In this document: positions 16,411 through 56,039 of the stretch, piece by piece
Position numbering within the stretch: the first letter of the stretch is position 1
How the letters are laid out: every line of letters starts with the position of its first letter
Origin: Mobula hypostoma
Lineage: Eukaryota
Assembly: GCF_963921235.1 (NCBI RefSeq)
Contig: NC_086097.1
Coordinates: forward strand, 142,664,001 to 142,728,000
DNA length: 64,000 nucleotides
Reading direction: 5' to 3'
The notes under the pieces: generated by a model
The model's input: the letters and a program-made list of their open reading frames with translations, nothing else
Told to the model about the DNA's origin: nothing
The model's database searches: none
Program-made: the position numbers and the translations under genes

Positions 16411-17490
16411 AGCTTCATATGAAGAGACACTGAGGCCCTGGTTAAGAACAAAACAGGAGATGCATAGCAGGTATAGACAGGTAGGAAGAAATGAGGTGCT
16501 TATTAAATATAAGAAATACAAGAGAAAACTTAAGAAAGATATCACAAGGGCTAAAAGAAGGCATGATGTTGCCCTAGCAGACAAGGTGAAGGAGAATCCT
16601 AAGGGATTCTACTGATATTTAAGAGCAAAAGGATTGTAAGGGATAAGATTGGTCCTCTGGAAGATCAGAATGGTAATACATGCATGGAGCCTAAAGAGAT
16701 GGGAGATTTCTTAAATGAATTTTTTTGCATCTCTATTTACTCAGCAAATGGACATATAGTCTATAAAAGTGAGGCAAAGCAGCATCGACTTCATGGACTC
16801 TAGACAGGTTTCAGAGGAGGTGGTGTTTGCTGTCTTGAGGCAAATTAGGGTGGTTAAATCCCCAGGGCCTGACAAGGAGTTCCCTTGGACCCTGTGGGAA
16901 GCAAGTGCAGAAACTGCCAGGGCCCTAGCAGAGATACTTAAATCATCCTTAGTGTCAGGTGAGGTACAGGAGGATTGGAGCATAGCCAAAGTTGTTCTGT
17001 TGTTAAAGAAAGGCTCTAAAAGTAAACCAAGAAGCTATAGACTGTTAAGCCTGATGTCATTAGTGGGAAAGTTAGAAACATAGAAGACCTACAGAAAAAT
17101 ACAGGCCCTTCAGCCCACAAAGTTGTGCTGAACATGTCCCTACATGTTATTGGAAGGTATTCTAAGGGACCAGATATATGAGTATTTGAATAGAAAGGGG
17201 ACTACTTAGGGAGAGTCAACATGGCTTCATGCGTGGTGGGTCATGTCTAACCAATCTTATAGAGTTTTTCAAGGAAGTTACCAGGAAAGTTGATGAAAGC
17301 AAAGCAGTGGATGTTGTCTACATGGACTTTAGCAAGGCATTTGAGAAGGTCCCGCACGAGAGGTTGATCAAGAAGGTTCAGTCGTTTGGTGTTCAAAATG
17401 AGGCAGTAAATTGTATTAGACACTGGCATTGTGGGAGAAGCCAGACAGTTTGTAGATGGTTGCCTCTCAGACTGGAGGCCTGTCACTAGT
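16411..17490 (+). mobile_element. CR1-clade LINE internal fragment with a small nested CR1 tail (17072-17145)
   Basis: KENPKGFY, KSPGPD, SCLTNLIEFF, YMDFSKAF motifs. Confidence 0.85.
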
Positions 17491-52066: not shown

Positions 52067-53836
52067 CTGCAACGGTATTGGGGATACTTCAGGTACAGTT
52101 CTGCAACATCACATACATTTCATTACAAATAAAATCTCAAAGAAATGGCAACTGCAGCAACAATTCCTTAAATCAGAAACAATCTAGAAATTGAAGTTAG
52201 GTCACAAAAGTCCTCAAGTATGTTCTGCCATAACCTTCATGAACTTCATGAATCTTAAAATCTTTGATTTTTAAAAGTTTATCAATATAAAACTTGAAAA
52301 TAACAACTCATCAAAGAAATGTCACCTGTGGAAGAATGGTTCAAATTTATATCCACATCTGCTTGACGAAGCATTACCTCAATTCATCCCCGAAACATTT
52401 GGATCTAATCTATCGGCTATTGCACTCATCATAAACTCCAGTCCTCTCTGACTACACTACCAGTTTTCTGTAAATGCCCTGAAAACTTTGGAATATTTGT
52501 GTATCACTCCCTCATAATTTAACTCCTGGGAGTTCAGGTTTCATTCGGTTTCACCTGAATGAACTTACAACAAGAATACACAGGTCTGAATATGACTATG
52601 GGCGGAAATAAGGAGAGAAAGGAGGTACTACACTGGTGATCTTCTTCAAAAAAATGGCTGAACAAATAAGTACTAGCAGCAGATACCAGAGTATCAAAAC
52701 CTATCCTATCCATACTAAAGAATATCTATTATTTAAAAAACAGCAGAAAACACTCAGTTGATAAATAAGATTATAACCAATGTGCCAGTGCAGAAGATAT
52801 GCTGCGGCATGTGGAATCCACAGATCAATGACAATAGCTATATCTTGGTTTCTGTGGCTTGAGGAAATTTTGCTCAGTTTCACGAGGTAAGTTTTAAAAA
52901 GTCAAGGGAAAAAGGGAATAAAAAAAGGTGTGGTGGCAATACAAATATTGATATGCGTGTGACAGTAAAGGGACATGGAGGAAAAAAATAAGAGTGCAAC
53001 AATAAATTCAAAATGGGAGCATTCGAGAATACATGACACTTTAAATGGTGCCAGGATAGCAATGCTAATGGTTGATGAGGTAATAGTGAGAAACGACCTC
53101 GGTTTCAAAGATCAAGGCACAAAATTGGTTTGGATGGAGTTAAAAATAACAGCAAGAGAAACAAGTTATTAGTGGGAATGGTCTAAAGGCCCTCAAACAG
53201 GATAAAATGTTAATCAAATAATAATGGGAGGGAATAAAAAGGCTTTTTTAAAAAATCGGAGTCCTAGAACACAACAGCATGAAAACAGTCCTTCCTGCCC
53301 ATCAAATCTTTGCCAAACCATTAATCTGCCAAGTCCCATTGACCTGCACCCGGACCATTACCCTCCATAACCCTCGTATCCATGTACCTTACCCCACACA
53401 AAACCATTTTGACTATCTCTAATCAGGTCCTTTCTATTCAAATACTTCTATATCTGGTCCCTTCGAATACCTTCCAATAACTTTCCCACTACTGATGTCA
53501 GTTTCATTGGCTGAGAATTTCATGCCTTATTCTTAGAGCTTTTCTTAAACAAGGGAACAACATTAGCTATCCTCCAATCCCCGGCACTTCACCCGTGGCT
53601 AAGGTTGTTATAAGCATCTCTGCTAGGGCTCCTGCAATTTCTACACTAACTACCCCCCCCCCCCCGCCCACAGGGTTTGAGGGAACACCTTGTCAGGCCC
53701 TGGGAACTTATCCACTCTAATTTGCCTCAAGACAGGAAACCCATCCTTCTCTGTAATCTGTACAGGGTCCATAACCTTGCTGCTGGAATGCCTCACATTT
53801 ATAGACTCCGTGTCCATTTATTTATGCGGGGTATAT

Positions 53837-54021
53837 GGGGTGTCAGGGAGGGGTAGCACCTCTGTTGGGGGAACATGTCGCGTCCTTTTCAGGGCGGTTA
53901 GTCCACCTTTGGTCCCCACCTGGCACTCAGCTCTCACCTGTGGCTCCCCGTAGCTGTTTGCATGCGACAGCGGCCACACCCCGGGCAACGGCTTCGACAA
54001 CCCGGCTAAACCAGGTGAGGG
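53837..54021 (+). ncRNA. predicted HDV-like self-cleaving ribozyme
   Basis: P1 GGGGUGU(53837-43)/ACACCCC(53976-82); P2 CUCUCACCUG(53931-40)/CAGGUGAGGG(54012-21); P3 GGC/GCC; L3 starts UCCCC; GGGCAAC after P1; P4 hairpin; GGCUAA with putative catalytic C54006. Confidence 0.75.
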
Positions 54022-54393
54022 TAGCCGACGGGTCTCAAACCCTTGGTGAGATAGGGAGTTGTCTATCCCAGCATGTGAAGACAGACTCCGGCGGATTGAG
54101 CGGACGAGACCAATGGAAGGTCCAACGGTCAAGAAGGCAGTCTCTGCAAGCGTCGTGGAACTTGTAGAGCAGGACAAGACACAGAAGACGTCCTGGTCAT
54201 CCACTGCGCCTAGTCCCTTCTCCAGCCGTCTAGACTCTGTCTTGCCACTGGATCCAGATGGGAATTGGGAAAAGAGAGTGAGGCTGACGCTGCGCAACTC
54301 TCCCTCACTTAAATCCAAATCACGCGCTAGTCTCGACACCATCATTATGGTGTCGAGGTCCTCATCGACGTCAACGATGGACGAACAACAACA
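53837..54393 (+). mobile_element. non-autonomous retroelement (probably RTE-clade derived) with 5' HDV-like ribozyme
   Basis: GC/CpG-rich insert interrupting a CR1; no credible ORF; 3' hairpin 54332-54357 and (CAA)n tail. Confidence 0.75.
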
Positions 54394-56039
54394 AATACAG
54401 ATGCAAAAATCCATTTAAGGTCTCGTGTATCTCTTGGCTCCATGCATAGATTACCACTCTGATCTTCTAGCGAACCAATTTTGAACCTTGCTATCCTTTT
54501 GCTCTAAAATATACGTGTAGAAGCCCTCAGGATTATCCTTCAGGTTGTCTACTGGACCACCTTAATGCCTTCTTTTAGCCTTGCTGATTTCCTTAAGTGT
54601 GCTCTTGCATTTCTTATGCTCTTTAAGAACCAGATTAGTTTCTGCCTGCCTATACCTGCTATGAACCTCTTTCTTTTTCTTAACCAGAGCCTCAATATCT
54701 CTCAGAAATCAAGGCTCCCCAAACCGGTTATCATTGCTTTTATTCCGACAGGAACATACAAATTCTGTACTCTCAAATTTTCACTTTTAAAGGCCTCCCA
54801 CTTACCAAGTACACCTTTGTCAGAAAATAACCTGTCCCAATCCACACTTACGAGATCATTTCTGATAACATCAAAATTGACCTTTCTCCAATTTAGAATC
54901 TCAATCTGAGGACCAAAACTATTCCTTTCTATAATTATCTTGAAACTAATGGCATTATGATCACTAGATGCAATGCATTCCCCTATAAAAATTTCTCTCA
55001 CCTGCCTTGTGTCATTTCCTAATCTAGTGTCACTCTCTCTCTTGTTGGACTTCTATGTACTGATTAAGAAAATTTTCCTGAACACATTTGACAAACTCTT
55101 TCTCATACAGCCCTTTTATAGTATGGGAGTCTCAGTTAATATGTGAAAAGTTAAAATCACCCACTAACACAACCTTATTTTTCTTGCAGTCTACTATTCC
55201 TATACAAATTTGCTCCTCTAAATCCCGTGGACTATTGGGTGGTCTATAATATCCCATTAATGTGGTTATACCTTTCTTATTTCTCGTTCTACCCATACGT
55301 CTGCACTAGACAAGCCCTCCGGTATCCTGAATGAGCACTACCGTGACATTTTCCTGACTAGTAATGGCACTCCTCTCTCTTTAATCGTTCTTGCTCTATC
55401 ATGCAGAAAACAATGAAACCCCAGAATATTGAGTTGCAAGTCCTGCCCCGCTGCCAGCAAGTCTCACTAATGGCTACAATGTCATAATTCCACATACTGA
55501 TCCATGCTCTAAGCTCATCTGCCTTTTCTACAATACTGCTTTCATTGAAATAAACACAGCTCAGAACATTAGTCCCAACTCAGCATATTCAACCTTTTGA
55601 TTCCTGACTTTGTGTGTAAGCTTAAGAATATCTTTCCCCACAACCACTGTCCTGGTGCTCTGGTTTCCATCTCCTTGAAACTCCAGTTTAAACTGCACCC
55701 CCCTCCCCCACCATGTAGCACTAGCAAACCCTTTTACTAGGATGTTAGTCTCCCCCTACCCCAGTTCAGGTGCAAACTGTCCCTTCTGTACAGGTCCCAC
55801 TTTCCCTAGATGAGAGGCCAATGATCCAAATATCTGATGCTCTCCTTCCTGTATCAATTCCTTAGCAAAGTGTTAAACTGTATGATCTTCCTACTTCTGG
55901 CCTCACCAGCATATGGCACAAGTAGCAATTCTGAGATCACAACCTTGGAGGTCCTGTCCTTTAGCTTAGCACCTAACTCTCTGAACTCACTTTGCAGGAC
56001 TCTGTCACCCATCCAACCCATGTCATGGCAGCTTTCATC

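What the first reader, a model, noticed from the sequence alone, without database searches (positions are those of the whole stretch)
53820..54393. Ribozyme-head / hairpin-(CAA)n-tail non-autonomous element without a Pol III head
Seen: a ~560-bp CpG-rich insert splits a CR1 (gtccattt | aaatacagatgc). Comparison with the CR1 copy near 16725-16760 suggests ~7 bp of target were lost and filler was added. The 3' end has a perfect 11-bp stem CTCGACACCAT-catt-ATGGTGTCGAG (54332-54357) and an AACAACAACAA tail; I see no tRNA A/B boxes or RT ORF. Inference: a bipartite LINE derivative (5' UTR ribozyme + 3' RT-recognition end) that is released from read-through transcripts by self-cleavage and mobilised in trans by an RTE-type RT. 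Retained CpGs suggest a young copy.
Basis: partly seen in the sequence, partly recalled or inferred. Interest (0 to 1): 0.75.

Follow-up and report, generated by a model that had tools for sequence, protein, structure and literature searches.

The report
Ribozyme-headed RTE remnant with end-to-end clasp
This is a young copy of a short jumping element built from the two ends of a 4.1-kb RTE-type retrotransposon in the same genome; it begins with a predicted self-cutting RNA fold, and its perfect hairpin joins two complementary stretches that lie 3.5 kb apart in the parent and stay complementary in many related elements, so they likely form an end-to-end RNA clasp that could explain why such short elements keep both ends.

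Summary
Confirmed and extended. Window 53828-54392 is one of at least 824 copies (exact junction matches) of a 565-bp non-coding retroposon with target-site duplications, 5' truncations and an (AAC)n tail. Its parent is in the same genome: a 4.1-kb single-ORF endonuclease/RT LINE (L138) that shares the first 520 nt (93%) and last 44 nt (86%). Bipartite, Pol III-less RTE derivatives are a published class (RTESINE1/2, WALLSI3). The head fits an HDV-like fold with compensatory changes across three LINE families, plus a 21-nt insert in loop L3; cleavage is untested and this subfamily has a P1 mismatch. The same 5'UTR-3'UTR complementarity, with different letters, recurs at the same position in a sister family (5 double changes) and in 14 of 23 metagenomic relatives (27 of 200 swapped controls). 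I found no description of this duplex in the papers I could search. Known kind of element; likely new, testable structural rule.

The parts
53828..54392 (+). Whole non-autonomous element (565 bp): 5' 520 nt plus last ~44 nt of an RTE-type LINE
53820..53827 (.). 8-nt filler, not part of the element; no TSD at this copy, 7 nt of CR1 target apparently lost
   Evidence: paralogous CR1 sites only
53828..53834 (+). Predicted P1 5' strand; predicted cleavage just 5' of 53828; position 6 (53833, A) is mismatched against P1 3'
   Evidence: homologous to the 5' end of families B and C
53835..53930 (+). J1/2 peripheral domain closed by a 10-bp helix (53838-53847 with 53919-53928); holds a second G-run at 53837 that could also pair as P1
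   Evidence: pair probabilities 0.92-0.97
53931..53951 (+). P2 5' strand (53931-53940), P3 (53942-53944), L3 core (53945-53951)
53952..53972 (+). 21-nt hairpin insert at the 3' side of L3; present in families A and D and in metagenomic L331, absent in families B and C
53973..54021 (+). P3 3' (53973-75), P1 3' (53976-82), P1.1 GG (53983-84), P4 (53989-54004, private mismatch at 54001), predicted catalytic C (54006), P2 3' (54012-54021)
54022..54331 (+). Remainder of the parent's 5' UTR; 75% alike to sister family B and by eye alike to RTE-1_PSi/RTE-3_AMi 5' UTR alignments
54332..54342 (+). 5' arm of the end-to-end duplex (from the parent's 5' UTR, about 375 nt before the ORF)
54343..54346 (+). 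Deletion junction (about 3.54 kb of parent removed), within the parent's (CAT)n tract
54347..54357 (+). 3' arm of the duplex (from the parent's stop codon / 3' UTR)
54358..54382 (+). Terminal 3' hairpin of the LINE, the likely RT-recognition element
54384..54392 (+). (AAC)3 tail; following AA shared with the target
53478..53819 (-).
54393..54702 (-). CR1 host, right part

Best explanation
The element is an internally deleted, non-coding derivative of a 4.1-kb RTE-type LINE that keeps the LINE's first 520 and last 44 bases; it likely spreads by borrowing an RTE endonuclease/reverse transcriptase, its RNA likely gets its 5' end from a predicted HDV-like ribozyme, and the deletion joined two complementary arms that likely pair end to end in the full-length LINE RNA. 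Shown: parentage, copy number, TSDs, truncations, fit of the HDV-like fold, and complementarity with sequence turnover across families. Inferred: (a) self-cleavage at 53828 from a longer Pol II transcript; (b) the duplex plus the terminal hairpin form the RNA signal that the RTE protein uses, so only deletions that keep both arms give a successful family; (c) the duplex also held the two ends together so that RT could skip the looped-out interior at a 4-nt microhomology; (d) the youngest copies may have been driven by the younger sister family B.
For: Parent L138: 93% over 522 columns at the 5' end, 86% over 44 at the 3' end, 1109-aa frame with RVT_1 and Exo_endo_phos. 824 exact junction matches, control 0. 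Exact repeats of 7-14 nt flank 43 of 54 other copies. Of 30 copies chosen by their 3' 101 nt, 15 start at base 1, seven are truncated by more than 45 nt and one has an inverted 5' part. HDV-like descriptor: one hit on the window's + strand, this one; 4 of 2000 shuffles. Compensatory changes between families A, B, C at P1-6, P2-8, P4-2. Arms in register: 10-11 of 11 pairs in 7 of 8 parsed parent copies, 10-12 of 12 in 14 of 14 parsed family B copies, with five double changes between A and B. Family C: a separate derivative whose junction also closes a duplex, arms present 3.0 kb apart in autonomous L237. Metagenomic relatives: longest helix lies 330-430 nt before the ORF in 14 of 23 clusters against 27 of 200 swapped pairs; 8 bp or more in 13 of 23 against 31 of 506 swapped and 41 of 736 other windows; family A and B arms lie at -375/-379 and -362. 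Published RTE-1_PSi and RTE-3_AMi ends show a 9-bp complement at the same place, read by eye.
Against: No cleavage or retrotransposition data. No Rfam ribozyme model matches families A, B or C, and the descriptor was written after I saw this fold. 25 of 47 parsed derivative copies, including this one, have an A-C mismatch at P1-6, tied to the youngest junction variant; P1 mismatches were linked to lost cleavage in R2 (PMC3774820). A blind Watson-Crick-only search inside the genome found the duplex in 4 of 7 family A copies but in 0 of 5 B, 0 of 1 C, and duplex energies were not better than shuffles. Old copy L154 pairs at only 3 of 11. Nine of 23 metagenomic clusters do not localise; the 330-430 window was fixed. 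Family D's junction stem is only 5 bp and its parent was not examined. Minor joints that remove the 5' arm exist in other runs. Plant RTE-mobilised SINEs are described with a 3' RTE part only (PMC6007223, PMC3747384). RTE membership was not tested by phylogeny.
Confidence: 0.72

Rival explanations
1. Same origin, but the 5' region works mainly as an internal Pol II promoter starting at 53828; the ribozyme fold is weakened or vestigial in this subfamily.
For: The youngest subfamily amplified with a P1 A-C mismatch (23 copies A with the newer junction, against 9 G with the older, 7 G with the newer, 1 A with the older) and a hairpin in the core loop L3. L1Tc Pr77 is both promoter and ribozyme (PMC4035085, passages). 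Kojima 2018 expects Pol II transcription from LINE 5' ends.
Against: The fold is kept by compensatory changes in three families and the L3 insert recurs in family D and in L331. About a quarter of R2 ribozymes have 1-2 mismatches at the top of P1 (PMC3774820). A stable P1.2 and long P2, both present here, speed cleavage (PMC4908430).
Confidence: 0.2
2. The duplex is real but serves the autonomous LINE in another step (translation control, RNA stability, RNP packaging in cis); it only steers where deletions fall and is not needed for mobilisation in trans.
For: Complementarity is conserved in full-length elements, where no deletion happened. Deletion joints cluster just inside the arms, which template switching alone would give. 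Some RTE-mobilised SINEs are described with a 3' part only.
Against: Families A, C and D all end up with a stem at the junction; 65 of 68 derivative copies keep 10-11 of 11 pairs, though youth alone explains that.
Confidence: 0.35
3. The 11-bp stem is a chance or family-specific inverted repeat with no role.
For: 9 of 300 shuffles reach a 10-bp helix in the 5' 800 nt of L138; B and C fail the blind test.
Against: Same position and different letters in family B and in 14 of 23 distant clusters against 27 of 200 controls.
Confidence: 0.05
4. A Pol III SINE, MITE or solo LTR.
For: Short, non-coding, high copy.
Against: No tRNA or A/B box; no terminal repeats in the self-comparison; variable TSDs, 5' truncations, microsatellite tail; every base maps to one LINE's two ends.
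Confidence: 0.01

Closest known systems
Bipartite ORF-less non-autonomous RTE LINEs: RTESINE1/2, WALLSI3/MAR4_MD, RTE1-N1_LA, RTE-N1/N2_Lch, Bov-A (Kojima 2018, PMC5786205; Ohshima 2013, PMC3747384)
   Same: 5' end plus 3' end of an RTE LINE, no Pol III head, microsatellite tail; by eye the same UTR motifs and the same junction position as WALLSI1 against RTE-1_PSi and RTE-3_AMi.
   Different: A new family in another host; those texts, as far as I read them, do not mention an end-to-end duplex, and Kojima calls the restriction of such derivatives to few clades unexplained.
R2 SIDEs (Eickbush and Eickbush 2012, PMC3414825) and NARTc/RIME/SIDER (PMC4035085)
   Same: Non-autonomous element made of a 5' HDV-like ribozyme and a LINE 3' end.
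   Different: Other clades; R2 SIDEs are rare and site-specific, this family is dispersed with at least 824 copies.
HDV-like ribozymes with a large structured J1/2, such as drz-Agam-2-1 (PMC4908430); ribozymes predicted in RTE families (Ruminski 2011, seen only as cited by Kojima 2018 and PMC6765202)
   Same: P1, P1.1, P2, P3, P4, catalytic C, U20/G25 positions, P1.2 domain and extended P2.
   Different: 21-nt hairpin inserted in L3; P1-6 mismatch in the youngest subfamily; no Rfam match; activity untested.
3' terminal stem-loops of stringent LINEs and of RTE/Au-like SINEs (PMC6007223)
   Same: A terminal hairpin (54358-54382) before a microsatellite tail; TSD of 7-14 nt.
   Different: The extra helix stacked next to it comes from a partner 3.5 kb away in the 5' UTR.

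Membership tests
Bipartite ORF-less non-autonomous LINE | 5' part equals the 5' end of an autonomous LINE | tested here: met
   93% to L138 from its first base
Bipartite ORF-less non-autonomous LINE | 3' part equals the 3' end of the same LINE | tested here: met
   86% over 44 columns; 29 parent 3' ends shown
Bipartite ORF-less non-autonomous LINE | No protein coded, no small-RNA head | tested here: met
Bipartite ORF-less non-autonomous LINE | Amplified as a unit by TPRT (many copies, TSDs, 5' truncation) | tested here: met
Bipartite ORF-less non-autonomous LINE | Pol II transcription and mobilisation in trans | not testable with these tools
   needs RNA ends and a cell assay
RTE clade (parent L138) | Single ORF with APE endonuclease and RT, no RNase H | tested here: met
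   definition recalled
RTE clade (parent L138) | (CAA)n-type tail and TSD of 7-15 nt | tested here: met
   against PMC6007223 passages
RTE clade (parent L138) | UTRs alike to named RTE families | tested here: inconclusive
   clear by eye against RTE-1_PSi and RTE-3_AMi alignments; no identity computed
RTE clade (parent L138) | RT phylogeny groups with RTE references | not tested
   homologues (up to 80% identity, e.g. turtle and frog proteins) carry no clade name
HDV-like ribozyme | Nested double pseudoknot P1, P1.1, P2, P3, P4 | tested here: met
   descriptor and compensatory changes
HDV-like ribozyme | Catalytic C at the start of J4/2; U and G of the L3 wobble | tested here: met
   J4/2 GCTAA in 48 of 48 parsed copies, but these letters were part of the parsing pattern; features from bioRxiv 10.1101/2022.09.22.508989 passages
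HDV-like ribozyme | L3 of 7-8 nt | tested here: not met
   7 nt plus a 21-nt insert in family A; 7 nt in B and C
HDV-like ribozyme | Fully paired 7-bp P1 | tested here: not met
   A-C at position 6 in this copy and 25 of 47 copies; G-C in 9 of 9 parent copies
HDV-like ribozyme | Match to an Rfam ribozyme model | tested here: not met
HDV-like ribozyme | Self-cleavage 5' of P1 | not testable with these tools
   element 5' ends coincide with P1 base 1, which is indirect; I file it as HDV-like in build, not as a proven member
Pol III SINE | tRNA, 5S or 7SL head with internal promoter | tested here: not met
MITE or solo LTR | Terminal inverted or long direct repeats, fixed TSD | tested here: not met

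The most novel reading that the evidence does not exclude
RTE-type LINE RNAs are closed into a loop by a short, covarying 5'UTR-3'UTR helix stacked on the terminal hairpin, and the RTE protein recognises this composite structure, not the 3' end alone. That would explain why RTE-mobilised SINEs are bipartite, why deletions land between the arms, and how a derivative can switch to a sister LINE with different letters; it would also give a design rule for RTE-based gene-writing templates. The L3 hairpin would be a new tolerated insertion site in an active HDV-like ribozyme.
Probability: 0.4. Interest if true: 0.8.

Novelty: new variant of a known kind. Interest (0 to 1): 0.6.

Why it matters
Kojima 2018 notes that only a few LINE clades make two-ended non-autonomous derivatives 'for unknown reasons' and that RTE SINEs keep a piece of 5' UTR. 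A conserved end-to-end duplex is a concrete, mutable answer: break one arm, repair with the other. RTE-1_MD is used as a gene-writing system with payloads between both UTRs (PMC13708176, passages), so the rule has practical reach. The element is also a natural 565-nt minimal template, and its L3-inserted fold shows a ribozyme layout that Rfam models miss.

Tried and rejected
Rfam at gathering and E-value thresholds: no ribozyme family. Whole-element folding z = -1.95, weak. Pfam on the element's three longest frames: nothing significant. First search for the parent through DUF6451 RTE copies: none of 20 loci matched. MAFFT alignment A1 mis-registered P2/P3/L3 between families, so I did not count pairs on it and parsed by motif (unparsed copies are left out of those counts). 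Blind helix and duplex-energy tests failed for families B and C (L189's end was mis-set). Tree of 76 5' regions was mostly unresolved: parents need 6 changes, one origin neither shown nor excluded. Sequencing runs: no RNA holder listed; contigs cannot show RNA ends. The second G-run (53837) as P1: allowed by the descriptor but it pairs in P1.2 and the first run is the homologue of P1 in B and C; a few copies start at +7 to +11, so it is not excluded. The window copy's 8-nt 'TSD' is a CR1 coincidence and was dropped. Ruminski 2011 was not held; Gogolevsky 2008 and patent WO 2025/255548 were not seen. Vingi was considered and dropped once the parent and the RTE UTR likeness were found.

Full report
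Observation. The window lies in a 3.48-Gb genome; earlier AI notes call the host a cartilaginous fish, which I did not test. The insert splits a CR1-like repeat: both flanks match one copy at 16423-17074, with 7 nt missing at the site; two of three paralogous sites agree. The element proper is 53828-54392; 53820-53827 is filler. It is CpG-rich (0.71 against 0.29), has no tRNA or A/B box and no coding signal.

Copy number and mode of spread. The 40 best of 3694 first-look candidates are 97-98% identical and full length. A 26-nt junction pattern has 824 exact matches, control 0, a lower bound. Exact repeats of 7-14 nt flank 43 of 54 other copies by a crude test, within the 7-15 nt range given for RTE (PMC6007223, passages). 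Among copies chosen by their 3' end, 26 of 51 start at base 1 and the rest are 5'-shortened by 1 to 438 nt; one has an inverted 5' part. This is the signature of target-primed reverse transcription (established knowledge).

Parent. Twenty DUF6451 loci did not match. A pattern for the terminal hairpin led to old RT-bearing copies, and their protein led to L138: 4.1 kb, a 1109-aa frame with endonuclease and RT domains, 93% identical to the element's first 520 nt and 86% to its last 44. The parent family has 542 and 880 first-look candidates; of 21 copies read in full only L138 has a frame over 400 aa. Two parent copies carry TAAT after the 5' arm, and most carry TAAT before the 3' arm, a possible 4-nt microhomology (inference). 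The same deletion, skipping 3531-3544 nt, stands in contigs of three other runs from three studies and not in the fourth run laid; minor joints that drop the 5' arm also occur. By eye the UTR and 3' end match RTE-1_PSi and RTE-3_AMi as aligned in Kojima 2018 (supplement parts 1-3 and passages); no identity was computed and no tree with named clades was built. RT homologues reach 80% identity but carry no clade name.

Age and driver. The 30 copies nearest this one differ by 0.6-2.1% from the column majority; the 30 parent 3' ends nearest L203 by 2.6-5.4%, and 35 copies of a sister family B by 0.9-3.5%. All three samples are biased to young copies. Family B has many near-intact frames but shares only 75% of part of the UTR and 84% of the last 32 nt. 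The youngest derivative copies may therefore have been moved by B; this is a suggestion only.

Ribozyme. Rfam finds nothing. A descriptor of the HDV fold that allows an L3 insert, written after I saw the fold, hits once on the + strand of the 64-kb window (here), once on the - strand, and in 4 of 2000 shuffles. Parsing 48 derivative, 10 parent, 5 family B and 16 family C heads shows compensatory changes at P1-6 (G-C to A-U), P2-8 (C-G, U-A, G-C) and P4-2 (G-C to C-G); these are three lineages, not 79 events. B and C have a plain 7-nt L3; A has a 21-nt hairpin after it, as do family D and metagenomic L331. The descriptor hits 4 of 23 metagenomic UTRs and 0 of 23 reverse complements. The 5' boundary of families A, B and C falls on P1 base 1. 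J1/2 closes with a 10-bp helix and P2 is long, a build that speeds cleavage in drz-Agam-2-1 (PMC4908430, passages). Against activity: this copy and 25 of 47 parsed copies have A-C at P1-6, linked to the newer junction variant, and this copy has a private P4 mismatch. P1 mismatches were tied to lost cleavage in one R2, though a quarter of R2 ribozymes have some at the top of P1 (PMC3774820, passages). Earlier AI notes on this genome report the same L3 hairpin; they are not independent evidence.

The 11-bp stem. It straddles the junction. One arm lies in the parent's 5' UTR about 375 nt before the ORF, the other at the stop codon, 3.5 kb away, directly before the terminal hairpin. Of 39 loci examined, 23 parsed with both arms: 7 of 8 parent copies pair at 10-11 of 11 positions, 14 of 14 family B copies at 10-12 of 12 with five double changes from A, and the old L154 at 3 of 11. 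Family C's independent derivative closes a 13-bp interrupted duplex with G-U pairs, whose arms lie 3.0 kb apart in autonomous L237. A blind Watson-Crick search within the genome recovered the pair in 4 of 7 A copies (9 of 300 shuffles as long) and failed for B and C, whose helices are interrupted. For a wider test I took 80 metagenomic loci, of which 39 had a near-full ORF, 29 had enough flank (10 dropped) and 23 clusters remained. The longest helix between the 3' end and the 5' UTR lies 330-430 nt before the ORF in 14 of 23, against 27 of 200 swapped pairs; helices of 8 bp or more in that window occur in 13 of 23, against 31 of 506 swapped pairs and 41 of 736 other windows. The window was fixed, but it brackets the A and B positions. 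The arms differ in sequence from cluster to cluster. RTE-1_PSi and RTE-3_AMi show a 9-bp complement at the same anchors, read by eye.

Mechanism. Shown: derivation, spread, fold compatibility, conserved complementarity. Inferred: a longer transcript is trimmed at 53828; the RNA presents duplex, terminal hairpin and AAC tail to an RTE protein; in the full-length LINE the same duplex loops out the ORF, which would both favour a deletion between the arms and select for derivatives that keep them. The chief rival is that the duplex serves translation or packaging of the LINE and only steers deletions; plant RTE SINEs described with a 3' part alone leave that open.

Comparison and novelty. Bipartite RTE derivatives without a Pol III head, and ribozymes predicted at RTE 5' ends, are in print (Kojima 2018, main text parts 1-4 of 5; Kojima 2020 passages; Ohshima 2013 passages; Weinberg 2019 review PMC6765202 passages); R2 SIDEs are the model (PMC3414825, abstract and outline; PMC4035085 passages). 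Ten literature searches (listings and abstract starts) and two searches of earlier findings showed no account of the end-to-end duplex, and the literature searches none of the L3 insert. The library lacks most subscription papers and patents: Gogolevsky 2008, Ruminski 2011 and WO 2025/255548 were not seen, nor parts 4-15 of the Kojima supplement beyond a term search, and any of them may mention it.

Verdict. The element is a new family of a known kind; the likely new part is the conserved end-to-end duplex, which turns an open question about bipartite RTE SINEs into a simple mutation-and-rescue test. Interest 0.6.

Noticed in passing
L213-L235 (family C), e.g. L221, L222, L225; autonomous L237 = G000:C9:29707100-29711900: A second RTE-like family with the same HDV-like head (7-nt L3, no insert) and its own ~470-bp bipartite derivative ending in (GAA)n; its junction also closes a duplex.
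   Followed up: yes
L283-L301 (family D): An older bipartite derivative (about 80% between copies, 5136 first-look candidates) with the same head and L3 insert and a 5-bp stem at the likely junction; parent not sought.
   Followed up: partly
L136, L148, L240-L243 (family B): Young sister RTE family with frames near 1000-1100 aa; several alternative 5' heads (ribozyme, GC-rich head, and copies starting 3 nt into P1 behind another repeat).
   Followed up: partly
window 53833 and 54343-54346: P1-6 A (mismatch) is linked to the newer junction variant: the youngest subfamily spread with a weakened P1.
   Followed up: partly
L056: Copy with an inverted 5' part, as twin priming would give.
   Followed up: no
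L030: Copy with a tandemly repeated 5' G-run.
   Followed up: no
L331: Metagenomic RTE-like element with the same 21-nt L3 insert, stem kept with a one-sided change.
   Followed up: partly
L318, L362: Longest helix maps about 60-70 nt before the ORF match (11 bp in L362), not at 330-430; shorter UTR or shifted arm.
   Followed up: no
L143, L144, L147, L149: Family B copies lacking about 300 nt between the 5' arm and the ORF start, arm retained.
   Followed up: no
L216: Family C 5' part fused directly to a family D body.
   Followed up: no
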